Below, in pieces: positions 15,644-61,821 of a DNA stretch of 64,000 nt (position 1 is its first letter; each line of letters starts with the position of its first letter). The position numbers and the translations under genes were made by a program. The notes beneath the pieces were generated by a model that saw only the letters and a list, made by a program, of their open reading frames with translations, made no database searches and was not told the DNA's origin. This stretch comes from Mobula hypostoma (taxonomy: Eukaryota), in NCBI RefSeq assembly GCF_963921235.1, contig NC_086108.1:16926001-16990000 (forward strand). Direction: 5' to 3'.

Positions 15644-15941
15644 ATAAATGCAACTACTTTCTTATAAACCAATGGTGTACCTACTTCCAGACGTAGTCAG
15701 ATTTTTTGAAAGGTTAAGTTTCGTTGACATTCTAAAGGGTAAGGATAAAAAACTAAATTGATGTGGATAGGCCTCTGTGATATTTCAATGCTCCATCTAT
15801 TAAGATCTTGCCCTAAAAATTTCCAGAACTAGGAGCTAATAGATTCTAAATTGCTTCTCAGAATACCTCAGAGAAAAAGAGTGTCAGAGTTGGAAGTCTG
15901 ATAGGTCAAAAGCAGAAAATTTTAACCTGAGCCATTAGTTA

Positions 15942-17541
15942 CAGTGGCATGCAAAAGTTTGGGCACCCTGGTCAAAATTTCTGTTTTTATGAATAGCTAA
16001 GTGAGTAAAAGATGAACTGAAGGCATAAAGTTAAAGATGACACATTTCTTTAATATTTTAGGCAAGATTACTTTTTTATTTCCATCTTTTACAGTTTCAA
16101 AATAACAAAAAAAAATGAAAAGGGCCGAAAGCAAAAGTTTAGGCACCCTGCGTGGTTGGTACTTAGTAACACCCCCTTTGGCAAGTATCACAGCTTGTAA
16201 ACGCTTTCTGTAGCCAGCTAAGAGTCTTTCAATTCTTGTTTGGGGGATTTTCACCAGTCTTCCTTGCAAAAGGCTTCTAGTTCCGTGAGATTCTTGGGCC
16301 GTCTTGCATGCACTGCTCTTTTGAGGTCTATCCACATTTTTCGATGATGTTTAGGTCGTGAGACTGTGAGGGCCATGGCAGAGCCTTCAGCTTACCCCTC
16401 TTGAGGTAGTCCATTATGAGGTAGTCCATTATATTTTGAGGTGTGTTTAGGATCATTATCCTATTGTAGAAGCCATCCTCTTTTCATCTTCAGCTTTTTT
16501 ACAGGCAGTGTGATGTTTGCTTCCAGAATTTGCTGGTATTTAATTGAATTCATTCTTCCCTCTACCAGTGAAATGTTCCCAATGGCTGCAACACAAGCCC
16601 AAAGCATGAACGATCCACCCCCATGCTTAACCGTTGGAGAGCTGTTCTTTTCATGAAATTCTGCACCCTTTTTTCTCCAAACATACCTTTGCTCACTGCA
16701 GCCAAAAAATTCTATTTTAGCTTCATCAGTCCACAGGACTTGTTTCCAAAATGCATCAGGCTTGTTTAGATGTTCCTTTGCAAACTTCTGACGTTGATTT
16801 TTCTTCTGATGACTCTTCCATGAAGGTCATATTTGTGCAGGTTTCGCTGCACAGTAGAACAGTGCACCAGCACTCCAGGGTCTACTAAATCTTCCTGAAG
16901 GTCTTTTGCAGTCAAACGGGGGTTCTGATTTACCTTTCTAGCAATCCTACGAGCAGTTCTCTCGGAAAGTTTCTTGGTCTTCCAGACCTCAACTTCACCT
17001 CCACCGTTCCTGTTAACAGCCATTTCTTAATTACATTATGAACTGAGGCAACAGCTACCTGAAAACACTTTGCTGTCTTCTTATAGCCTTCTCCTGCTTT
17101 GTGGGCATCATTTATTTTAATTTTCAGAGTGTGAGGCAGCTGCTTAGAGGAGCCACTGGCTGCTAATTGTTGGGACAAGGTTTGAGGAGCTACAGTATTT
17201 ATAAAGCTTTGAAATTTGCATCACCTGGCCTTTCCTAGTGATGACTGTGAACAAGCCATAGTCCTAACAAGCTAATTAAGGTCTGAGACCTTGGTAAAAG
17301 TTATCTGAGAGCTCAAATCTCCTGGCGTCTCAAACTTCTGCATGGTGCTCTTCCTTTTTTTTTCCCCACTCTAAAACTGTACAAAACAAAAATAATACAC
17401 TAATCTTGCTTAAAATGTTGAAAAGAATGTTTCATGTTTTAAACTTTATGACTTTTGGAGATCAGTTCATCTTCTACTCACTTAACTATTCACATTAACA
17501 GAAATTTTGACCAGGGGTGCTCAAACTTATGTATGCCCCTG
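15942..17541 (-). mobile_element. Tc1-like DNA transposon (IR/DR type), inactivated transposase
   Basis: TIRs CAGTGGCATGCAAAAGTTTGGGCACCC / GGGTGCTCAAACTTATGTATGCCCCTG, TA flanks, internal DR at ~16131; GEGYKKTAK, RSGRPR, NPRLTAKDLQ and GGVTKY fragments. Confidence 0.94.
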
Positions 17542-17949
17542 TACATAGTTTAACACTGAACAAGGTAGCACAAAGCAAACATAAATATAGAAGAGGTAGG
17601 AGATCCGCATCAAAATACTTGTTCAATCTTCATAGTTGCACAAGTAGTAAATATTTCCCAAGCATTTTTCCAGACAACTTATGTGAACAAAATGAGATTT
17701 ACAACACAGTTCTTTTTTTTTAAATCCTTGTATGTCTCAAGGTAGTGGCATCCATCATCGAGAACCCTAACTATCAGGGACTTGCCTGCTTCTTGTTCCT
17801 GTCACCAGAGTGGTGGTACAGGAGTCTGAAGACCCATAGTCCACAATTCAGAATCAACTTCTTTCCTCCCACTATAAGATTTCTGAATGGTCCCTTTTTT
17901 TGCACTATATATTTGGCTTGCTGCCGTAGGACATCAAATTTCACGTTAT

Positions 17950-20840: not shown

Positions 20841-22440
20841 CAGGTTTCCCCCGCCATCCGAAGGTAAGAGCGTTCCTATGAAACAGTTCATAAGCCGGAA
20901 TGTCGTAAAGCGAAGAAGCAATTACCATTTATTTATATGGGAAAAATTTGTGAGCATTCGCAGACCCGAAAATAACCTACCAAATCATGCCAAATAACAC
21001 ATAAAACCTAAAATAACAGTAACATATAGTAAAAGCAGGAATGATATGATGAATACACAGCCTATATAAAGTAGAGATACTTTTCCACAATAATTGCCTG
21101 CACTGTTCTCCGTAGCGAAAACCTCACGCAAGCGCTCTTGGCAAAAACACGGCTCAAGCGCTCTCCAGTAATCTTTAAGCTATGAAGCTACCAAATCATA
21201 CCAAATAACATGTAAAAATACACAGCTGATATAAAGTAGAAATAATGCATGTATAGTGTAGTATCACTTACGGGAATCGGGACAGCGCCGAGCACACTGA
21301 TGATGGTGTGTTAGGCTGAGTCGTCAGAGGCTGGGGTGGTGCAATGGCCCCCACCCTCCGGGCAACCGACCAATACTGATCCGCGAAGCATGCAGCGGTC
21401 CAGCGGTGCCCGGGACGCACCCAACACATCTTTAAGAAAAAAGCCGAAATACACAAGCTAATTAATTAGGTGCTGCCCGGCACGTAAATGTCGGCCCAGA
21501 TCAGAGGCGACGCAATCGGCAATCATCTCTGATCTTGGCCGACATTTACATGCCGGGCGGCACCTAATTAATTAGCTTGCTTATTTCGGCTTTTTTCCTT
21601 AAAGATGTGCTGGGTGCCTCCCGACTACCGCTGCATTCTCCACAGATCGGTATCCGTCCACGGCCTGGGGTTTGGGGTGGTGGGACACTGGGGTGTCATC
21701 TCATCGTCTGTTTCCATGAGGGTAGGCAGGTCATCTTCTACGTCTGCCTGCCTCGATGTCGAAGGTCGAGGTTCGTCATCTGCTGAAGGCTTGCTTGACT
21801 GCTTAGCCTCGTGCATTCTTAGATCATATAGTTCTTTGTAAGCACTCAAACCATCCTGCAAATATGCCCTAAATCAACGTACCCTTTCAAAATTAAAGTC
21901 GTACTTTATCATTGCAGCGAAAATCTCACGTAGTTGCCTCACGTTCAGTTCCTGGACGACTTCACTTTCGGTCTGTTCGCTACTGCATTTGGTTTTGATT
22001 GTTATCCTTTCCTCTTACAATTGCATCAGCTCTTCATCTATCAGTTCTTGTTCATGGGATGCTAAAACCTCTTCAACATCATCTTCGTCAACTTCCAAAA
22101 GCCAAACTCACTTTGTCCTTACTTCGTTCACCACGATTGAAACACTTAATTATATCTAGTTTTACGCTAAGTGTAACACCCTTACGAGCTCTTTCAGGCT
22201 TTGCCAATACCTTAGAACTCATCTTGCAAATGGCTGCTCACAGGCACGTGTTTAAGCAATGCCGGTCAGAATGCTGTTCCGAATCCGGGGGTAGAGTGGC
22301 TGCTCGGGGCGCGCGTTGCTTTTTATCGCGCACTGCCTTTTTTTCGTAACAGTGAAAACACCTTCTATTAGTGAAAACAGGTAACTAATGTAGGTTTTTC
22401 GTAACAGTGAGGTTTTGTAAAGCGAACGTTTGAAAAGCTG
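20841..22440 (-). mobile_element. Internally deleted Tigger/pogo DNA transposon
   Basis: Starts CAGGTTTCCCCCG, TA flanks. Minus-strand MSSKVLAKPERARKGVTLSVKLDIIKCF (ATG 22222) is fused to a TIGD-like C-terminus (ELIDEELMQL..AYKELY..AKQSS). The right TIR is damaged. Confidence 0.87.
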
Positions 22441-29166: not shown

Positions 29167-29380
29167 CAGGAATTCTGCAGATGCTGGAAATTCAAGCAAC
29201 ATACATCAAAGTTGCTGGTGAACGCAGCAGGCCAAGCAGCATCTATAGGAAGAGGTGCAGTCGACGTTTCAGGCCGAGACCCTTCGTCCTGACGAAGGGT
29301 CTCGGCCTGAAACGTCGACTGCGCCTCTTCCTATAGATGCTGCTAGGCCTGCTGCATTCACCAGCAACTTTGATGTATGT
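29167..29380. mobile_element. Palindromic Penelope-derived insertion with hammerhead motif
   Basis: ~90-bp near-perfect inverted arms centred at ~29289; 13-bp TSD TACACACAAGCAT (29154-29166 / 29381-29393). Confidence 0.9.
29286..29319 (+). ncRNA. Minimal type I hammerhead ribozyme motif
   Basis: GTC-CTGACGA-A-GGGT CTCG GCCT-GAAA-CG-TC-GAC. Confidence 0.75.
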
Positions 29381-30815
29381 TACACACAAGCATGGTCTGT
29401 TTCATTTTCTGAGTTGTGAATGGAAATCCCTAATTCCCTAATTCAGACTTTAAAATTGAAAGAACGTCACCGATGAAGCACTTGAAACGGGCTAGGCATA
29501 AAACACTGGCTTGGGGAACTTCTGCAGTGATGTTTTGGTTGTGTGCTTGGGGTGATTGTCCTCAAATAACTATAACACTTCCTTTGTACAAAATGTGATT
29601 TGAGTTGTTGTAGGTTTTCCCCTGATACCCACCAAATTCAGTTTCACCACAATTCCTTGATTAGTCAAATGCTGCCATGAGGCCAAAGGCTCACAAAGCT
29701 CTGTTGAAGTCTGAAGCAAACTACTTCAAGCAAAATGCAATGGCAATCCGGGCAGTAGTGACACCACTGGTGAGCAAGCGCTGCTGGACACCAGCTTCCA
29801 CTACTTTGTTGTTGTTTGAGAGTGGACTAATTGATAGCCTGAATTGAAATGAACCTGCTTTTATGAATAGGCACACTTTTCATAGTGTTAGTGGGTGTCA
29901 GTATGATAACGATACCAGAATGTCATGGGAACAGAATAAGCTTTTCAACCTTGCAAGATAAGTATGCCATTTTACAAGATAATTGCTGATCTTTGTCAGT
30001 ACCACTTTCCCATCCTATCCCCACTTTCCTTGAATCCTTTGTTATTCAGAAACCAACCTGTTTTAAATAAAATCAATGATTGAGCTTCCACAGTCTGAGA
30101 TAAAGAATTCCCAAGGTCCACCTCTTAGAGCGAACAAAGGAATTTCACCTCATTTTAGTTTTAAATTATTTTGAGACTATGACCCCTAGATCTAGACTCC
30201 ACAGCCCAGAGGAATATTCTCCTCACATCTACCCTGCTGCATCCTCAAATCAATGGAAGAGGTTCTGAGTGAGAAAGACATGTCCAAATCAAACAGATTG
30301 GATTGCAATGGAGGCAAATTCAATATCCTTGCAAATTACAGTTGGGAAGGTTTACACTGCAGCAGCAGGACAATTGGAACCCAATGACAATTTTAGAACA
30401 CTGATTGACGTAACAATACAGAAGAAAGAGCCCTGAAGGGTTTATTTCTCTCCATAGACGCTGCCTCACTGCTGAGTTCCTCCAGCATTTCGAGAACATT
30501 GCTCAAGATTTCCAGCATCTGTTTGGCTCATGGTAGGGGATAATTAAACAAACCTCCAAGCCAGAAGATGGGTTCACAAGGAAACAAAAGCTGAAAAAAA
30601 AGTTTAGCAATGTTTGTAGAGATCGTGTTAGCCTTTAAAAATGAGTTTTTAAAAGCAAAGTGACTTGAGCAAAGTCAATGTGATTTGTTAAGAGAAAGCC
30701 GCAAGTGGCTAATATTTGAAATATTTTTGAGAGGCAATGAGGAGTGTTAGTAAATTAGCAGGGTGTTGGCCTACATGGTTTTTAGCAAAACATTTGACTC
30801 ACTCTTATATATGTG

Positions 30816-31648
30816 TGTAACACGCTGTAAGGTTTCACTGCTAATGTAATGGTCTCCCTGTAATGTTTCACCGCTAATGTAATGGCCTTTATGTAATGTT
30901 TCATTGCTAATGTAACTGTTTCACTGTAGCAGCAATGTTTGGGTTATGACTAGAGATAACGGGGCTTTGGAATGTGTGCTATCCAATGAGAGGGATGTTG
31001 TTCTTTCTTGTGGGTGTGGGAGCAGGGATTTCACAGTCTTTTGTTGGGGAGAGATGGGGAGAGATGAGGAGAGAAGATGCGAATGGAAAGAGTTGGTAGA
31101 CTGCTGGACGGAGTGGACTTGGAACCAAGGATCAGCTACGCTCGGAGGAGGTCGACGGGGAACAAATGAACGAAACCATGAGCTCCAACGTTGTGCATTA
31201 GACTGTTTCATGAGAATGGGCCCTTTTCTTTTTTTGTTTCTTTACTAACCATATAGTCAAATTAAGAATTATAAAGCTCAATCATTTGATCGCATATAGT
31301 CTACTGTTATTCCGTGGTACTGATTTGTAACAGGGAACACATTGCGCAGCAACCACCCAAACAAGATTACTTAAATTTGGCCAGGCCGAGGGCTGTCTTC
31401 CCCTAGATTAAGTCACTAGCCAAACCGAGAGTTACAATTGTGGGGGCTCGTCCAGGATTTGAACCAGGGACTCTTGCACCCGAAGTGAGAATCATACCCC
31501 TATACCAAAAGGGCCCATTCCCATGAAACAGCTGGAGCTCATAGTTGCTACAGAGAAACCATTGCTGCTACAGAGAAACCATTACCTTAGCAATGAAACA
31601 TTACAGGGAGGCCATTACGTTAGCAGTGAAACCTTACAGCGCGTTACA
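30816..31648 (+). mobile_element. Composite LTR / antisense tRNA-Pro / inverted partial LTR element
   Basis: TGTAAC...GTTACA outer termini; 6-bp TSD TATGTG (30810-30815 / 31649-31654); LTR 30816-31436; inserted in a decayed CR1 RT. Confidence 0.88.
31441..31515 (-). pseudogene. tRNA-Pro(CGG) retro-copy including 3' CCA
   Basis: Minus strand TTGGTATAGGGGTATGATTCTCACTTCGGGTGCAAGAGTCCCTGGTTCAAATCCTGGACGAGCCCCCA versus vertebrate tRNA-Pro. Anticodon at 31482-31480; changes mostly at CpG; first ~6 nt replaced by LTR sequence. Confidence 0.9.
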
Positions 31649-32009
31649 TATGTGCTAAACTGATGGGGGCAGCAAAACCCTATGAGATCCAATGAAAATG
31701 ACAAATTAGACAAAAAACATCTGCTCAGTCATCAACAGGAGTTTTCATATCTGGCAGGATCTCTGCAATAGAATTCCACAAAACTCAGTGGTAAACTTCT
31801 TGTTTTTCATAACTTGGACAAATGTAGGCACTGTGACAAAGAAATAGACCTCTGATACCAAAATTGTCAATGTAGCAATATTCACTGAGGAAGATGTTCC
31901 TTGCTACAGGAAAGTACAAAAGTATGGTTATGTGGGCAAATCAAATTCAATATGGAAATGTGCATGTTGGTGAATTTGTGAAGGTTAAACAAGCAAAGAA
32001 ATGCATGAT

Positions 32010-38585: not shown

Positions 38586-38659
38586 GTATTCTGAAAGTCA
38601 TTACCAAAAAAAACTGTCCCAAAATCTTCCAGCATCCCATATTACACTGCAAAAATATA

Positions 38660-40263
38660 CAAAACCCATTTACAGAAAAGTTGGGATATTTTCCAAAATG
38701 CAATAAAAACAAAAATCAGTGATATGTTAATTCACGTGAACCTTTATTTAACTGACATAAGTACAAAGAAAAGATTTTCAATAGTTTTACTGACCAACTT
38801 AATTGTATTTTGTAAATATACACAAATTTAGAACTTGATAGCTGCGACACACTCAACAAAAGTTGGGACAGAGTTAAAATAAGATTGAAAAGTGCACAGA
38901 ATATTCAAGTAACACCGGTTTGGAAGACTCCACATTAAGCAGGCTAATTGATAGCAGGTGAGGTATCATGACTGGGTATAAAAGTAGCGTCCATCAAAGG
39001 CTCAGTCTTTGCAAGCAAGGATGGGTCGTGGCTCACCGCTTTGTGCCAAAATTCGTGAGAGAATTGTTAGTCAGTTCAAAAGGAACATTTCTCAACGCAA
39101 GATTGCAGAGAATTTATGTCTTTCAACATCTATAGCACATAGTATTGTGTAAAGATTCAGAGAATTCAGAGACATCTCAGTGCGTAAAGGGCAAGGTTGG
39201 AAACCACTGTTGAATGCACGTGATCTTCGAGCCCTCAGGCGGCACTGCCTAAGAAACCGTCATGCTACTGTGACAATTATAGCCACCTGGGCTCGGGAGT
39301 ACTTTGGAAAACCATTGTCACTCAACACAGTCCGTGACTGCATCCAGAAATGCAACTTGAAACTGTATTACGCAAGGAGAAAGCCATACATCAACTCTAT
39401 ACAGAAACGCCGGCGAGTTCTCTGGGCCCTGAGCTCATCTCAGATGGACCAAGAGACCGTGGAACCGTGTGCTGTGGTCAGATGAGTCCACATTTCAGCT
39501 AGTTTTCGGAAAAAACGGGCGTCGAGTTCTCTCTGCCAAAGATAAAAATGACCATCCAGATTGGTATCAGCGAAAGGTGCAAAAGCCAGCATCTGTGATG
39601 GTATGGGGTGCATCAGCGCCCACGGCATGGGTGAGTTGCATGAATGTAAAGGTACCATTGACTATGAGGCCTATATTAGGATTTTAGAGAGACATATGTT
39701 GCCATCAAGGCGATGTCTCTTCCCGGGACGTCCACGCTTATTTCAGCAGGACAATGTCAGACCACATTCTGCAGGGCTACAACAGCATGGCTTTGTAGAC
39801 ACAGAATGCACGTGCTTGACTGGCCTGCTGCCAGTCCAGATCTATCTCCTATTGAAAATGTATGGCGCATCATGAAGAGCAGAATCAGACAACGGAGACC
39901 ACGGACTGTTGAGCAGCTGAAGTCTTATATCAAGCAAGAATGGACAAAATTTCCAATTGCAAATCTACTACACTTATTATCCTCAGTTCCAAAATGATTA
40001 AAAAGTGTTATTGAAAGGAAAGGTGACGTAACACAATGGGTAAACATGCCTCTGTCCCAACTTTTGTTGAGTGTGTTGCAGCCATCAAATTCTAAATTTG
40101 TGTATGTTTACAAAATACAATTAAGTTGGTCAGTAAAACTATTGAAAATCTTTTCTTTGTACTTTTGTCAGTTAAATAAAGTTTCATGTGAATTAACATA
40201 TCACAGATTTTTGTTTTTATTGCATTTTGGAAAATATCCCAACTTTTCTGGAAATGGGGTTTG
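38660..40263 (+). mobile_element. Tc1-like DNA transposon, frameshifted transposase
   Basis: ~210-bp TIRs CAAAACCCATTTACAGAAAAGTTGGGA, TA flanks; WSDES, FQQDN, WPAASPDLSPIENVW. Confidence 0.95.
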
Positions 40264-40699
40264 TAGTAAAACTTCTGTTTTTATTTTTAACATTGACCAA
40301 CATTCTTTGCTGCTGCAAAACAACAAAGTTCATAATATATGTCAATGATAATAAGTCCAAGCCTGATGAGTCGAGGCAACAATCCAATTTCAGGTTTCAG
40401 CCAAATAAACCACAAGCTCAAAGAATTGCTAACATCAACCGAACTCTCCATGTAATTCGTAAGCAGTGATAATAGCATCCCTAAACATTCATTTCCCAGC
40501 TCCTGGTGAATTATGAAGGAATCTTTCTCTCTATAATTATCTTTTATATAAACTACTACTGTCTGTAATTCTGTTCCTCAAGTTGAATGATCCTTCATCC
40601 CAAATAAGACCTGGAACTTACTCAGATATTTGGAAAAGCAGATTACCATATCATACAATCCAACAACTGTGGTTATATAGCATTTCCAATGTTAACATG

Positions 40700-45355: not shown

Positions 45356-45424
45356 CTCATACTGGATGTACTGTTTGCGCCATTCCGGCGTGATGTGCGC
45401 TGATAAATGTTCGGCAAATTTCAT
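45356..45424 (-). CDS. XPR1: XPR1 first coding exon (69 bp; N-terminus of the SPX domain)
   Basis: Reverse complement reads ATGAAATTTGCCGAACAT...CAGTATGAG|GTGAG = [23 protein letters not shown], matching the vertebrate XPR1 N-terminus as I know it. It is followed by a canonical GT donor (GTGAG, phase 0) and lies next to a CpG island. Confidence 0.96.
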
Positions 45425-55609: not shown

Positions 55610-58600
55610 TGTGAGAAGAGGATAGTTAGGACCGAAATGCTGGAGTATCTGAGGCTGGAATTGAGACAGGATACTAGATAGAAACAAGAACTGAGTACTT
55701 AGCAAGTCGCTAGATGATAATCCAAGTAAAGTTTATGATTGAGCACTGGGGCTCGTTCAGGTGCTCAATTTAAATGCTGAATTCTTGGTGCCAAAACATG
55801 ATTGTCAATTAACAGGACGGTCCTGTACCCTTGAAGGGACTGCACTATCTATCCATATTACGGATAGAGCATCTAAATCTCAGAAGCTGGCGCTTTTGGG
55901 GGCACCTTGTAACAGGACCCCCTCGCATATGGCTGACTCTTGACAACCCTGGCTGCTCGGAGAGACAATGATGGTAGTTGTGGATGAGAACCTGATCCAA
56001 GATGTCTTTCAGGCACCCAATACCTTTCCTTGGGTCTGAATCCTTCCCAGTCCATGAGGTATTGCCGAACATCCCAAACAGTTTGTGAGTCCAAATTTCT
56101 TCTCACTGTGAAGACCTGTTCCCTATCAATAAACCTGGTTGCTGATGGGGCTAGGGGACTGGTGCTGACAAGTTTTAATAAAGCAATATGGAGGGAGGGA
56201 TTGATCCTCAGGGTCTTGGGAGCTGCAAGGTGTAAGCTACAGGGTTTACTTTCTAGAGGGTCTTGAAGGGTCTGATGAATTGGGGTGGCAATGTTCTAGA
56301 CTCCAGGGAGTCAAATCGTGAGTGGACAGCCAGACCTATCATCCAGGCTGCAAGGCAGGCCCCCGTCTTTTCTGATTAGCCTTGGTTTCCACCTTCCAGA
56401 TAGTGCCAGCAAAAGCTCCGTTGTCCTAATCCATTCTACTTGCAGCTTTGGACAAGTTCTATGGCCGCAGGAACCCCGGCCTCAGCCTCCTGCTCAGCCA
56501 AGAGTGCAGAGAATACCCAAACTGGCACTCGAATGGTGGCATCCCATGTACTGAATGCTGTAAGGTGTTGTGGGCAGTCTTTGTCCACATCAAAAAATTG
56601 TATGACTCACCAGGTCTTTCTGAGACTAGGTATCTGAGGGTTCATTCCAAATCTTGATTGACTTGTTCTGTCTGGCCGTTGGACTGTAGGTTAAACCCAG
56701 AGGAGAGGCTTGCTGTTGCCCCAATCAGTTTACAGAATGGCCTCCAGAAGCATGTGAATTGTGGACTGCGATCTGTGACTACATCCACAGAAAAACTATG
56801 GATTCCAAAGATCTGGTCCAGGACAATTTCGGCCGTTTCTGCTGTAGATGGTAGCTTGTCCAAGGCAGTGAATCTGCAGGCCTTTAAAAACCAATCAACA
56901 ATTACCATGATGACAGTCTTCCCTTTGGAAGGTGGAAGACCTGTGACAAAGTCCATGGAGGTGTGCGCCCATAGTCTGTCCAGAACAGGTAGAGGATGGA
57001 GGAGCCCTTAAGGTTAGGTACAGGGCTCCTTGTTCTGGGTGCACACCTTGCATGCCTGCATGTATTGTTGAACCTCTTTCACCATTCTGAGCCACCAATA
57101 CCTCCTCTTGATGAACTCAATCCCTGAGCGGTCATTCTCGATGTGACCTGACGGAGCTTGAGACAAGCATTCGAGCTGAAGGACCATCTTTAGTCTTCCC
57201 TTGTGCTTGTGAATTGAATTGAATTGACTTTATTTCTTACATCCTTCACATACATGAGGAGTAAAAAATCTTTGTTACGTCTCCGTCTAAATGTGCAATG
57301 TGCAATCATAGTAATTTATAATAAATAGAACAGTTAATGAAACATAGAAATACACTCAAATCAGTGTGAGTTAATCAAAGTGATGGCCTGGTGGAAGAAG
57401 CTTTTATGCTGTGGTACCGTTTCCCAGATGGTAGCAGCTGGAGTAGATTGTGGTTGGGGTGATTCGGGTCCCCAGTGATCCTCTGGGCACTTGTTGCACA
57501 CCTGTCTTTGTGAATGTCCTGAATCATAGGAGGTTCACAACTACAGATGCACTGGGATGTCGGCACCACTCTCTGCAAAATCCTGCCATTAAGGGAGGTA
57601 CAGTTCCCATACCAGGCAGTGATGCAGCCAATCAGGATACTCTCAATTGTGCTCCCGTAGAAAGTTCTGTGCCTTGCGAATGAGCTTGCTGATTCCCCAA
57701 TGGATTGGTGCTATGACCTTGACTTGAGGCAAAATGATGGTAAGCTGCTCCTCTCCTTCGCGTTCATTGGACCAACAAGACAAGGCATCTGGTTTTTGAT
57801 TCTTTGACCCCGGTCAATAGGTCAGGTCAAAGTTAAAACAGTTAAAGAAAAGAGATCTACATGGCCTGCCTGGAGTTCAGTCTCTTGGCCTCCAGAATAT
57901 AAAGCAGGTTCTTGTGGTCTGTCCAAACAATAAAAGGGTTCTTGACCCCTCCCCCTCAAGCCAATGACGCCATTCCTCCAATACCAACTTAACTGCTAGT
58001 AGCTCCTGATTCCTAATGTTGTAGTTCCTCTCTGCTGGGGATAGCTGTCTGGCAAAGAATGTACACGTGCGCAGTTTACTGTCCAAAGGTAACTGTTGAG
58101 ACACAGCACCCACTCTAATGATAAAGGGACGGCCCGGGTTAGGTGAAACCAAGATGGGGCTGATGTGAACCGCTGTTCAAGCTCTGCAAAAAACAGCCCC
58201 CACTTTGGTAGTCCAGACAAAGTGGATTTCTTAGTTAGAACCGTAGGCAGAGCTGCCACCGAGCTGAAGTTCCTGATGAACTTCCAGTAAAAGTTAGCAT
58301 ACTGTTGGACTTGTTTGATGCTGGATGGTTGGGCCATTCTCTGACTGCCTGGTCTTGATAGAGTCCGTCTTGAGATTGCCATTGGAGATAATGAAACCCA
58401 AAAATAGAACAGTCGTCACGCGAAATTCGGACTTCCCCAGCTTGACATAAAGTCCGTGGTCTAAAAGTTTTTTTAAAAATGTCCATGACGTGAACAACAT
58501 GCTGCTCCATGGACTTTGAGAAGATTAGGATATCATCCGAGTAGACGAAGGCACACTTATGAAGAGTATCTTGGAGCACGTGATTTATAAAGGACTGAGA

Positions 58601-58702
58601 AACTGCTGGAGCATTGCAAGGTTGAAGAGCATAACCAGATACATGTAGTGCCCTGTCAGTGTATTGAATACAGTCTTCCCTAATATGGACCAGATTGTAC
58701 AA
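55610..58702 (-). mobile_element. Gypsy chromovirus-type LTR retrotransposon remnant (RT, RNase H, integrase, chromodomain, PPT, partial 3' LTR)
   Basis: [74 protein letters not shown] (55924-55915) followed by TGTTACA. Confidence 0.9.
57210..57665 (-). mobile_element. Rex1 3' fragment nested in Gypsy
   Basis: LLQLLPSGKRYHSIKA; (GAATT)n tail at 57210-57226. Confidence 0.85.
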
Positions 58703-58932
58703 GAATTTTGAAAGCCGCCGATGTTGGTTCTGCTCGTAGCAAAGTGTTCTCTCTTAGTCTGCATCCAATAATGGATAAAATGGAAAGTCTATTGCTTGAG
58801 TGGATTGATGGGTGTACAAAGCGTGGTGTTCCATTAAGTTTTCTTATACTTAAGGAGAAATCAGTCAGTCTTTTTAATAAGCTGAAACAGAAAGCACTGG
58901 ACGATGGTGATGAAAGTGTTGCGAAAGTGGAA
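58703..58932 (+). pseudogene. Tigger transposase CENP-B HTH fragment
   Basis: MDKMESLLLEWIDGCTKRGVPLSFLILKEKSVSLFNKL. Confidence 0.75.
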
Positions 58933-60401
58933 GCGGGCCGAGCGACTCTGAGGCTGGCCAGGGGTCTACATGTAGAATTTCTTGTGTTCTTGAGGTTATC
59001 CTTCAGTTATCTAGGGCATTATTGCAACAGTATCTGGAGTTGTATACTACTGGTCTCCTTATTTAAGATAGGATGTTAAGGCATTTGTTCAATGAAGATT
59101 TACAAGACTAATATCTACAATATTTTGGACAGGCCAACATGGTATTGACTGGAGTTTAAATGAGTTGGTGATGGTGTTGGGGGGGGGGGTGCTGTTGATA
59201 GAAAAATATGAAATGCTGAAGAGTTCTGCCAAGATACAAGTGCAATAGATATTTACTTTAATGGGAGAAACTGGAACAAGAATTAATCATTTATAAGCAA
59301 GGGATTACCCATTTATGACAGCAATGAGAAGATTTTTTTTCTCTGTCTTGTATGTATTTGCAACTCTTCCTCAAAAGGAAATAGACACATAGTCTTTGAC
59401 TCATTTTAAGGCCAAGATATAGAGATTGTGACAGATTAACATGTGAGTGAATAGTTACAAGGGAATGTGGTATTGAGGTTACAAACAGATTAGCCTTGGA
59501 GCAGTCCTTGGGAGCCAAGTAACCTCATCCTCCTCCTAATTTATATCATTTTGTATGATGCATTGTCTCTGTTTTCTAAACTATTTTTGCGTCTGATACT
59601 TTGTGATTTATAGTGTAATCTTCTTACCAGGGCTCATATACAGACTTGGCTCATTAGCTAACTCTGCTAACAGCCATGTGACTCAGCGGTGAGAAGGCTA
59701 TCTTTTATAAATAATATACGTCTAGGGTCTGTCTGAGATGGGGTTCAACCAAACAAGAATGTCATAATGTTCTGATTAAAGGAAACTTGATTTGAGTGAA
59801 AGCTGTGTAAATACTGCCTATACACAGTCATTGGTAGCTCAGAAATGACAGATAGTACACTAGCATAAAATGATAAAGAAAGTATATTTGCCAAATATGC
59901 AACTTTAACAAACAGTTACAGGAAAAAAAGAAAAGTAAAATAAAAAGGCCCCTTAAGTTAAACCAGTCCAATGTGCACATAACTTTGGAGCTGATACTGG
60001 AGTATTCATGGGTGTAACTGTTACTTATGCACTGGACCCATGGTCTGCGTGAAAGCACCCGCCACCCTCTGAAATCCCCTTAAAGATATTTCAAACGAAC
60101 TGGCTCTCTATCTGGAATATTGGACATTCCTCCTTGGAGCCATTCATCTGCACAAAGCATTTCTTGCAATGGAGACTCTCCTTCTAATGATATTTTGTGG
60201 CATCTTCCCTTGTGCTCCACTTCACAGCTCCTGCCAAAAAACCCCCAGTCCAGATTACTGTTCTTCAGAAAACTCTTCCCTACAGGTCTCTAGAACCTCC
60301 TCTCACATTTTACCATCCTGATTGGCTGATTCACATTCCTATTTTGGATAACATGGTGATGTCAACATTATCTTAGCCAAAGCCAAACCACACTTTCCAA
60401 C

Positions 60402-61821
60402 AAGCAACACACATCAAAGTTGCTGGTGAACACAGCAGGCCAGGCAGCATCTCTAGAAAGAGGTACAGTCGATGTTTCAGGCCAAAACCCTTCGTCAGGA
60501 CTAACTGAAGGAAGTTAGTAAGAGATTTGAAAGTGGGAGGGGGAGGGGGATATCCAAAATGATAGGAGAACACAGGAGGGGGAGGGATGGAGTCAAGAGG
60601 TTGACTGGCAAAGGGGATATGAGAGGAGGCCCGGGGAGAAAGACAAGGTGGGGGGAACCCAGAGGATGGGCGAGGACAGAGGGAGAAAAAGGAGAGTGAG
60701 AGAAAGAATGTGTGTATAAAAATAAATAACAGATGGGGTACGAGGGGGAGGTGGGGCATTAGCGTAAGTTAGAGAAGTCAATGTTCATGTCACCAGGTTG
60801 GAGGCTACCCTGACGGAATATAAGGTGTTGTTCCTCCAACCTGAGTGTGGCTTCATCTTGACAGTAGAGGAGGCCGTGGATAGACATATCAGAATGGGAA
60901 TGGGACGTGGAATTAAAATGTATGGCCACTGGGAGATCCTGCTTTCTCTGGCGGACAAAGCATAGGTGTTCAGCGAAATGGTCTCCCAGCCTGCGTTGGG
61001 TCTCGCCAATATATAGAAGGCCACATTGGGAGCACTGGACGCAGGGCCCCAGACAGTCCTTCCAGGTGAGGCGACACTTCACCTGTGAGTTGGCTGGGGT
61101 GATATACTGCGTCCGGTGCTCCTGATATGGCCTTCTATATATTGGCGAGACCCGACGCAGACTGGGAGACCGCTTTGCTGAACATCTACGCTCTGTCCGT
61201 CAGAGAAAGTAGGATCTCCCAGTGGCCACACATTTTAATTCCACATCCCATTTCCATTCTGACATGTCTATCCACGGCCTCCCCTACTGTAAAGATGAAG
61301 CCACACTCAGGTTGGAGGAACAACACCTTATATTCCGTCTGGGTAGCCTCCAACCTGATGGCATGAACACTGACTTCTCTATCTTCCGCTAATGCCCCAC
61401 CTCCCCCCCGTACCCCATCTGTTATTTATTTTTATACACACATTCTTTCTCTCGCTCTCCTTTTTCTCCCTCTGTCCCTCTGACTATATCCCTTGCCCAT
61501 CCTCTGGGTTCCCCCCCACCCTTGTCTTTCTCCCCGGGCCTCCTGTCCATGATCCTCTCATATCCCTTTTGCCAATCACCTGTCCAGCTCTTGGCTCCAT
61601 CCCTCCCCCTCCTGTCTTCTCCCATCATTTTGGATATCCCCTTCCCCCTCCCACTTCCAAATCTCTTACTAACTTCCTTCAGTTAGTTCTGACGAAGGGT
61701 CTGGGCCTGAAACATCGACTGTACCTCTTCCTAGAGATGCTGCCTGGCCTGCTGCGTTCACCAGCAACTTTGATGTGTGTTGCTTGAATTTCCAGCATCT
61801 GCAGAATTCCTGGTGTTTGCG
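60402..61821. mobile_element. Penelope-like element, two 3' halves in inverted arrangement
   Basis: GIY-YIG remnants (GVIYCVRCS, LLYIGETQRRLGDHFAEH..RLEEQHLIFR) on both strands; junction ~61041; flanking TTCCAAC duplication (60395-60401 / 61822-61828); hammerhead motifs at 60467-60502 (-) and 61685-61720 (+). Confidence 0.92.

What the first reader, a model, noticed from the sequence alone, without database searches (positions are those of the whole stretch)
31437..31545. tRNA-to-LTR junction records a template switch and creates a proto-SINE
Seen: the tRNA complement runs to ..ATACCAA and continues as AAGGGCCCATTCCCATGAAACAG, the reverse complement of LTR 31203-31227, sharing only AA. A further jump reaches ATGAGCTCCA (~31179-31188), then the U3 repeats. 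On the minus strand a tRNA with A-box- and B-box-like sequences (TGGTATAGGGG; GGTTCAAATCC) is fused through CCA to antisense U5. This is the arrangement proposed in the 'strong-stop DNA plus primer tRNA' hypothesis for the origin of tRNA-derived SINEs. It is in the XPR1 sense orientation. Pol III activity is inference only.
Basis: partly seen in the sequence, partly recalled or inferred. Interest (0 to 1): 0.7.

Follow-up and report, generated by a model that had tools for sequence, protein, structure and literature searches.

The report
Primer tRNA fossil between inverted LTRs
A jumping gene's copying enzyme apparently ran through almost its whole tRNA primer, jumped back onto the element's own terminal repeat, and the two-headed product was inserted as one piece into a fish gene; it looks like an old, one-off copying accident that resembles, but has not become, a new SINE.

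Summary
An 833-bp insert (30816-31648) between a perfect 6-bp duplication consists of a complete 621-bp LTR, a 4-nt spacer, a 68-nt antisense copy of mature, CCA-tailed tRNA-Pro, and a deleted, inverted copy of the same LTR that ends exactly at its U3 tip. Best reading: plus-strand strong-stop DNA read through the primer tRNA, joined LTR-sense DNA, and the product was integrated through two U3 ends. The landing site is the single best match (6 of 8) to the tRNA's 5' end among 614 LTR positions, so the copy may have been complete before the switch. The LTR is a very high-copy family, but the junction has about single-copy depth, and one element end is bridged in each of two related species, so the event is old. 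'Proto-SINE' describes the layout only: A and B boxes survive, but the switch put a T4 Pol III terminator against the A box, the tRNA copy is decaying, there is no LINE-type tail, and no amplified family is seen (with a filter caveat). A known kind of error, unusually well preserved; interest 0.4.

The parts
30810..30815 (+). Left target-site duplication (TATGTG)
   Evidence: Identical hexamer at 31649-31654; chance about 3e-4 at a fixed place
30816..31436 (+). Complete LTR, 621 bp, TGTAAC...GTTACA, of a very high-copy family (class ERV or Gypsy not determined)
   Evidence: Other copies begin at 30816 with unrelated flanks (83 and 90 loose ends in X1, X5) and end at 31436 (records 23, 30, 31); summed depth 2,400-236,000 against 6-24 in most flank bins
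30826..30924 (+). Three 33-bp tandem units in U3 (two in the inverted arm)
   Evidence: (D2)
31219..31226 (+). Landing site: best ungapped match in the LTR plus strand to tRNA nt 1-8 (6 of 8)
   Evidence: 1 of 614 positions reaches 6 of 8; by duplex energy only rank 65-117 of 611
31437..31440 (+). 4-nt spacer between LTR end and primer-binding site
   Evidence: spacers of 2-6 nt (the range the pattern allowed) in 36 other LTR-end/PBS-Pro pattern matches
31441..31458 (+). Normal 18-nt primer-binding site for tRNA-Pro
   Evidence: another family copy aligns to 31459 and then departs (record 16)
31441..31508 (-). Copy of mature tRNA-Pro(CGG), nt 7 to the CCA end; 5 substitutions (3 CpG transitions) and 1 deletion against tool-fetched references
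   Evidence: fold z-score 0.49
31455..31465 (-). B-box consensus match
31497..31507 (-). A-box consensus match
31507..31510 (-). T4 tract made by the junction, overlapping the first base of the A box; holds the 2-nt overlap
   Evidence: [quoted passage not shown]
31507..31531 (-). Inverted LTR piece 1 (copy of 31203-31227)
   Evidence: 24 of 25
31533..31546 (-). Inverted LTR piece 2 (copy of 31174-31187), after a 14-nt skip with a 2-nt overlap
   Evidence: 13 of 14
31546..31583 (.). 20-bp tandem duplication at the seam of the large (about 230-nt) skip
31557..31648 (-). Inverted U3 end (copies of 30892-30940 and 30816-30858), ending exactly at the LTR tip
   Evidence: 84 of 92 identical; bridged to the right flank in organism C by 37 letters (record 32)
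31649..31654 (+). Right target-site duplication (TATGTG), direct orientation
30787..30790 (-). First T4 downstream of the tRNA head, in the host flank; end of any read-through Pol III RNA
45356..45424 (-). Context: XPR1 first coding exon; the insert lies 14 kb downstream, probably in intron 1 (later exons not located)

Best explanation
A one-off, dead-end product of LTR-element reverse transcription that was integrated through two U3 ends. (1) Plus-strand strong-stop synthesis copied U3-R-U5, the spacer and the PBS and failed to stop at m1A58, copying the primer tRNA-Pro(CGG) to nt 7 at least, possibly to its 5' end (product shown; read-through inferred). (2) The overhang could not make the normal second strand transfer; its 3' end paired instead with LTR-sense nucleic acid at the T-rich stretch 31219-31227 (junction shown; pairing inferred). 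(3) Synthesis ran back to the U3 tip; a flush stop there means the template itself ended at U3, i.e. plus-strand DNA, most simply a second, partial strong-stop molecule with which it primed mutually (inferred). (4) Integrase joined both U3 ends and left a 6-bp duplication (shown by ends and TSD). (5) The skips in the inverted arm arose during synthesis or later in the chromosome (undecided). The locus predates the split of organisms A, B and C and has decayed since; it has not been amplified and probably yields little or no Pol III RNA.
For: Perfect direct TSD and identical TGTAAC/GTTACA tips at both ends. CCA-bearing tRNA copy in exact PBS register. Loss of the m1A58 stop gives over-long plus-strand DNA that fails transfer (PMC8599865, PMC11251516, passages). 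1 of 34 informative LTR-end/PBS-Pro pattern matches from metagenomes (36 fetched, 2 too short) has a 39-nt primer copy ending just before G37 (L008), so such over-runs occur elsewhere and are uncommon. Landing site is the only 6-of-8 match to the tRNA head in 614 positions. Junction bin 31501-31550 depth 22.7, 2.83, 4.52 in X1, X5, X9 against 64,000-200,000 for the source bin 31201-31250. Left end bridged in organism B (32 letters), right inverted end in organism C (37 letters); flanks differ 1.8% and 5.7%. Arms differ at 10 of 131, compatible with that age (P 0.21). LTR reverse transcriptases switch at short similarities (PMC5131818, passages).
Against: The exact 2-nt overlap is at chance level (0.16) and the landing site is thermodynamically ordinary (rank 65-117 of 611); the 6-of-8 test was made after seeing the junction. 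No contig among the 32 listed pieces (32,657 more not shown) spans the tRNA-to-arm junction, and its bin in B and C is below flank depth, so the junction itself rests on the window and on X1 depth (X1 may be the source sample). The family's normal TSD length is unknown, and the ends can also be read as a 4-bp TSD plus two extra letters on the left. PMC8599865 states that over-extended HIV cDNA cannot be integrated; integration here needs the rescue step, which is inferred.
Confidence: 0.8

Rival explanations
1. Proto-SINE or young SINE source: the tRNA head is transcribed by Pol III through antisense U5 and has been, or can be, retroposed.
For: Both boxes match consensus at normal spacing; the LTR piece restores 5 of 7 acceptor-stem pairs so that ARAGORN calls a whole tRNA; T4 leaks about 25% in human U6 constructs. 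At 31470 depth without the extra reference letter is about 30, 11 and 31 in X1, X5, X9 (1.3-5 flank equivalents), which leaves room for a few copies, and contigs matching human DNA (as tRNA-Pro would) are filtered out silently.
Against: T4 abuts the A box; no terminator for about 700 nt and no simple-repeat or A-rich tail; ends are integrase-type, not LINE-type; depth over the tRNA body is 2-6 flank equivalents against roughly 110-165 over the 18-nt PBS (rough), far from the 100 copies of the SINEBase definition; CpG decay in the stems, fold z 0.49.
Confidence: 0.05
2. Same read-through, but the two halves were joined by host end-joining (microhomology-mediated) of two incomplete cDNAs, or by a fold-back on the same molecule, rather than by a polymerase switch to a second molecule.
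For: A 2-nt overlap fits end-joining as well; the arms differ in 33-bp unit number, which varies among family copies (joints skipping 34 and 66), so template identity is open; inserted PBS, tRNA-primer and other viral sequences occur at HIV 2-LTR circle junctions (PMC5618025, passages).
Against: A pure fold-back gives a hairpin with one double-stranded U3 end and would not readily leave a TSD (inference); the 6-of-8 match at the landing site favours priming by a full-length tRNA copy.
Confidence: 0.1
3. Chromosomal rearrangement after insertion (replication fold-back duplication), or an LTR that landed beside a pre-existing tRNA gene.
For: Fold-back structures are common in this window; close inverted repeats are prone to later deletion (own knowledge).
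Against: A fold-back running past U3 predicts an inverted left flank on the right; observed is the direct TSD. Tool-fetched tRNA-Pro genes L001, L003, L004 carry no CCA and have an intact 5' stem; the copy sits in exact PBS register.
Confidence: 0.03
4. A MITE or Ginger-like DNA transposon with terminal inverted repeats that moves as the 833-bp unit.
For: About 125-bp inverted termini starting TGT and a TSD.
Against: Family copies end at 31436 and run into unrelated DNA or an 18-nt PBS; the inner part of the inverted arm has about single-copy depth.
Confidence: 0.02

Closest known systems
Over-extended plus-strand strong-stop DNA of retroviruses (read-through of m1A58; HIV-1, HTLV-1 with tRNA-Pro; PMC8599865, PMC11251516, passages read)
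   Same: U3-R-U5-PBS followed by primer tRNA sequence beyond 18 nt; failure of the normal second transfer
   Different: There an unintegrated dead end seen in vitro or in mutant cells; here nearly the whole tRNA, rescued by a junction to LTR-sense sequence, integrated and inherited in the germ line
Aberrant LTR junctions with PBS or tRNA inserts (HIV 2-LTR circles, PMC5618025, passages read; older reports of whole-tRNA copies between LTRs are recalled only)
   Same: Primer-derived sequence trapped between LTR sequences by reverse-transcription errors
   Different: LTR parts are inverted, not tandem; linear, integrated, with a TSD
Microsimilarity-driven template switches of LTR retrotransposons (Tan et al. 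2016, PMC5131818, passages read)
   Same: Switch at short shared sequence inside the particle, then integration
   Different: There host mRNA lies between direct LTRs with a median 6-bp similarity; here the captured RNA is the primer and the LTRs are inverted
Strong-stop hypothesis for tRNA-derived SINEs (Ohshima et al. 1993; title seen in reference lists only, content recalled)
   Same: Minus-strand order tRNA, CCA, antisense U5, with Pol III boxes
   Different: No amplification, no LINE tail, terminator at the head; made most likely by plus-strand read-through
Helenus/Ajax/Cassandra (TRIMp3; PMC10886601, abstract and passages read)
   Same: Small-RNA-derived Pol III promoter tied to an LTR element
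   Different: There the tRNA-like part lies inside both direct LTRs, is not the primer, and the elements are multi-copy with PBS and PPT

Membership tests
tRNA-derived SINE (SINEBase definition, PMC3531059) | tRNA-derived head with A and B boxes | tested here: met
tRNA-derived SINE (SINEBase definition, PMC3531059) | At least 100 interspersed copies | tested here: not met
   Junction bin about single copy; tRNA body 2-6 flank equivalents. Depth is not a copy number and human-like contigs are filtered, so the body count is a lower bound
tRNA-derived SINE (SINEBase definition, PMC3531059) | 3' tail of simple repeats or LINE-derived end; mobilised by a LINE | tested here: not met
   Downstream is the whole antisense LTR ending at an integrase-type tip and TSD; no tail
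tRNA-derived SINE (SINEBase definition, PMC3531059) | Transcribed by Pol III from the internal promoter | not testable with these tools
   Only contigs could be laid; T4 against the A box argues against
LTR element (solo or 5' LTR) | TG...CA termini shared by dispersed copies | tested here: met
   Copies start at 30816 and end at 31436
LTR element (solo or 5' LTR) | tRNA primer-binding site next to the LTR end | tested here: met
   31441-31458; also in other copies, records 7 and 16
LTR element (solo or 5' LTR) | Direct LTRs around an internal region with PPT, or one LTR between TSDs | tested here: not met
   Second LTR part is inverted; no internal region
ERV versus Ty3/Gypsy | gag-pol(-env) phylogeny of the parent element | not testable with these tools
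   No genome; no coding part. 10 of 13 long ORFs scanned behind the same end/PBS pattern in unrelated loci (13 of 15 ORFs of 300 aa or more were sent) carry SCAN or PNMA domains, as Gypsy-type Gags do, but none of these loci matches this LTR by blastn
ERV versus Ty3/Gypsy | Family-typical TSD length | tested here: inconclusive
   6 bp at this one aberrant site; 4 bp plus two extra letters is also readable
Functional tRNA-Pro gene | Intact acceptor stem and cloverleaf, no encoded CCA | tested here: not met
   nt 1-6 replaced, CCA encoded, stem changes, no Rfam tRNA match at E up to 10
TRIMp3 (Helenus) | tRNA-like sequence inside two direct LTRs, with PBS and PPT between | tested here: not met
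   tRNA lies outside the LTR and is the primer complement
MITE / Ginger-like TIR element | Dispersed copies sharing both inverted ends | tested here: not met

The most novel reading that the evidence does not exclude
LTR reverse transcriptase plus integrase can, in one step, place a complete type-2 Pol III promoter fused to antisense U5 in the germ line; this locus is a caught example that is actually transcribed (leaking through its T4) and has a few derived copies, and such over-run primers are a recurring source of SINE heads in this lineage, which would make the strong-stop hypothesis of SINE origin directly testable.
Probability: 0.06. Interest if true: 0.75.

Novelty: new variant of a known kind. 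Interest (0 to 1): 0.4.

Why it matters
It is a germ-line record of three steps usually seen only in vitro: failure of the m1A58 stop over nearly a whole primer tRNA, rescue of the stranded end on LTR-sense sequence, and integration through two U3 ends. It shows that the sequence layout required by the strong-stop hypothesis of SINE origin really gets fixed in vertebrate genomes, and also why it usually goes nowhere (terminator at the head, no LINE tail). A genome-wide census of such fossils would give the rate of primer read-through and the stop positions in an ancient germ line. It is also a shared insertion marker for three related species.

Tried and rejected
No whole genome is held, so copies could not be counted or TSDs measured. 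No RNA holder listed; the one run guessed to be RNA (X12) has family contigs but no cover over 31501-31550: no evidence either way on expression. Rfam gave no tRNA match (only a sub-threshold mascRNA hit). ARAGORN's tRNA-Arg call is a one-base shift of the anticodon. No other copy of the LTR in the window, in viral contigs or among 40 fetched loci. My first extension count had an offset error and was redone. A 4-nt shared word near the large skip was considered as its guide, but the seam carries a duplication and cannot be placed (the cut tested was one base off). Later XPR1 exons were not found by short motifs. No empty-site joint among the 15 joints shown; 301 were not shown. Literature searches listed no report of a genomic LTR-whole-primer-inverted-LTR insert, but the library lacks most subscription and older virology papers; Ohshima 1993 and Kramerov and Vassetzky 2011 are not held. 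No supplements were read.

Full report
Setting. The first coding exon of XPR1 lies on the minus strand at 45424-45356 (SPX domain, E 3e-07). The finding lies 14 kb downstream, probably in intron 1; later exons were not located. No genome is held.

Anatomy. An 833-bp insert, 30816-31648, sits between two direct copies of TATGTG (chance about 3e-4). From the left: a 621-bp LTR (30816-31436) with TGTAAC and GTTACA tips; a 4-nt spacer; the complement of a tRNA from its CCA end to nt 7 (31441-31508); then LTR sequence in reverse: 31203-31227 (24 of 25), a 14-nt skip, 31174-31187 (13 of 14), a skip of about 230 nt with a 20-bp duplication at the seam, and 30892-30940 plus 30816-30858 (one of three 33-bp units missing), ending exactly at the U3 tip. 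Neither short piece was matched by any of 2000 shuffles. The tRNA is tRNA-Pro with anticodon CGG by alignment to fetched tRNA-Pro genes; ARAGORN's Arg is a shifted anticodon. U3/R/U5 borders were not mapped; a poly(A)-signal-like word at 31270-31275 suggests that the landing site is in U3 or R.

The LTR is real and common; the junction is not common. Contigs of four runs were laid on 30501-32000 (X1 may be the source sample; X5 and X9 are other organisms and studies). Summed depth is 2,400-236,000 over LTR bins in the three DNA-type runs against 6-24 in most flank bins (up to 43 in X9). Copies start at 30816 with unrelated flanks, end at 31436 (records 23, 30, 31) or continue into the PBS (records 7, 16). 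Bin 31501-31550, the junction, has 22.7, 2.83 and 4.52. Depth at 31470, in the tRNA body, is 38, 16 and 63, i.e. 2-6 flank equivalents, against a rough 110-165 over the 18-nt PBS. These depths are not copy numbers, and contigs matching human DNA, as tRNA-Pro would, are removed silently, so the tRNA-body figure is a lower bound. The left end is bridged in organism B (32 letters inside), the right, inverted end in organism C (37 letters); the other four end records have 7-28 letters inside and do not count as bridging. No listed piece (32 shown, 32,657 not) spans the junction itself. Flanks differ by 1.8% (B) and 5.7% (C); the arms differ at 10 of 131, compatible with insertion before these splits. 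The tRNA copy has 5 substitutions, 3 of them CpG transitions, and 1 deletion against fetched references and folds no better than shuffles.

Mechanism. Plus-strand strong-stop DNA normally ends at m1A58 of the primer; without that stop it runs on and cannot transfer (PMC8599865 and PMC11251516, passages; steps as in PMC12789967, passages). The left 693 bp are exactly such a product. Over-runs occur elsewhere: of 36 metagenome loci with the same LTR-end/PBS pattern, 34 had enough sequence, and 1 (L008) carries 39 nt of tRNA-Pro ending just before G37 (that G37 is methylated is recalled). The exact overlap at the junction is 2 nt, which chance gives 16% of the time. But the missing tRNA head, inferred from the copy's own acceptor strand, matches 31219-31226 at 6 of 8, the only such site in 614 plus-strand positions, one base from the observed register. 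This suggests a full-length copy whose 3' end paired here, with the LTR-derived strand fixed afterwards; against it, the test is post hoc and the duplex energy ranks only 65-117 of 611. A flush end at the U3 tip needs a template that ends there, i.e. plus-strand DNA; mutual priming with a second partial strong-stop molecule gives a fully double-stranded product with two U3 ends, whereas a fold-back gives one end only (inference). The direct TSD excludes a later chromosomal fold-back, which predicts an inverted flank. Whether the skips arose during synthesis or later is open. The parent's class is undetermined; unrelated elements with the same end and PBS often encode Gypsy-type Gag domains (10 of 13 ORFs scanned), which is only a lead.

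Proto-SINE? On the minus strand the order is tRNA, CCA, spacer, antisense U5, with both promoter boxes intact. That is the layout of the strong-stop hypothesis as I recall it; the paper is not held and I saw only its title. Against function: the junction creates a T4 overlapping the first A-box base, and T4 terminated 75% of transcripts in human U6 constructs (PMC5725217, abstract and one section; a different promoter type and position, so only indicative); the next T4 is about 700 nt on, in the host flank, with no tail; the SINEBase criteria of copy number and tail are not met (PMC3531059, passages). For: T4 leaks, the LTR piece restores 5 of 7 acceptor pairs, and the depth at 31470 leaves room for a few copies. 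Transcription could not be tested.

Comparison and novelty. Each step has precedent: over-extended strong-stop DNA, primer-derived inserts at LTR junctions (PMC5618025, passages), microsimilarity switches (PMC5131818, passages). Helenus-type elements differ in having the tRNA inside direct LTRs (PMC10886601, abstract and passages). My searches listed no genomic case combining a near-whole primer copy with two U3 ends, within a library that lacks most older virology. Unchecked notes of this scan report an LTR with 51 nt of tRNA-Pro and a 45-nt tRNA-Thr site in the same genome, and U3-U3 or inverted-LTR inserts in other genomes, so the ingredients seem to recur.

Verdict. Observation confirmed; template switch supported; proto-SINE true of layout only. 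New variant of a known kind, interest 0.4; 6% for the reading that it is an active SINE seed.

Noticed in passing
L008:1501-1522 (minus strand) and the 39 nt behind the LTR-like end: A second over-long tRNA-Pro primer copy (39 nt) behind an LTR-like end, stopping just before G37; 1 of 34 informative loci.
   Followed up: partly
window 30815: In all four runs a subset of contigs has non-random letters just before the LTR start, suggesting a slightly longer LTR subfamily (table 7).
   Followed up: no
window 31014-31199: Other family copies skip about 176-183 nt of the LTR middle (joints in X12 and X9): internally deleted LTR variants.
   Followed up: no
window 30816-31648 minus strand: In XPR1 pre-mRNA orientation the insert folds into a long hairpin (z -9.9), a possible ADAR substrate.
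   Followed up: no
window 29198-29381, 21401-21633, 60401-61786: Three other fold-back (palindromic) structures; the first and third share a repeat family, and the third has GIY-YIG-like peptide stretches, as in Penelope-type inverted ends (labels recalled).
   Followed up: no
window 15940-17543 and 38658-40265: Two elements with about 215-bp terminal inverted repeats and transposase-like remnants, Tc1-like by recall.
   Followed up: no
window 55876-58753 minus strand: Decayed Gypsy-like pol remnants (RT, RNase H, integrase, chromodomain-like by recall), interrupted by a LINE piece.
   Followed up: no
L005-L035: The LTR-end plus PBS-Pro pattern retrieves many SCAN- or PNMA-domain Gag ORFs from metagenome contigs (10 of 13 scanned); L039 is a bacterial epimerase chance match.
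   Followed up: partly
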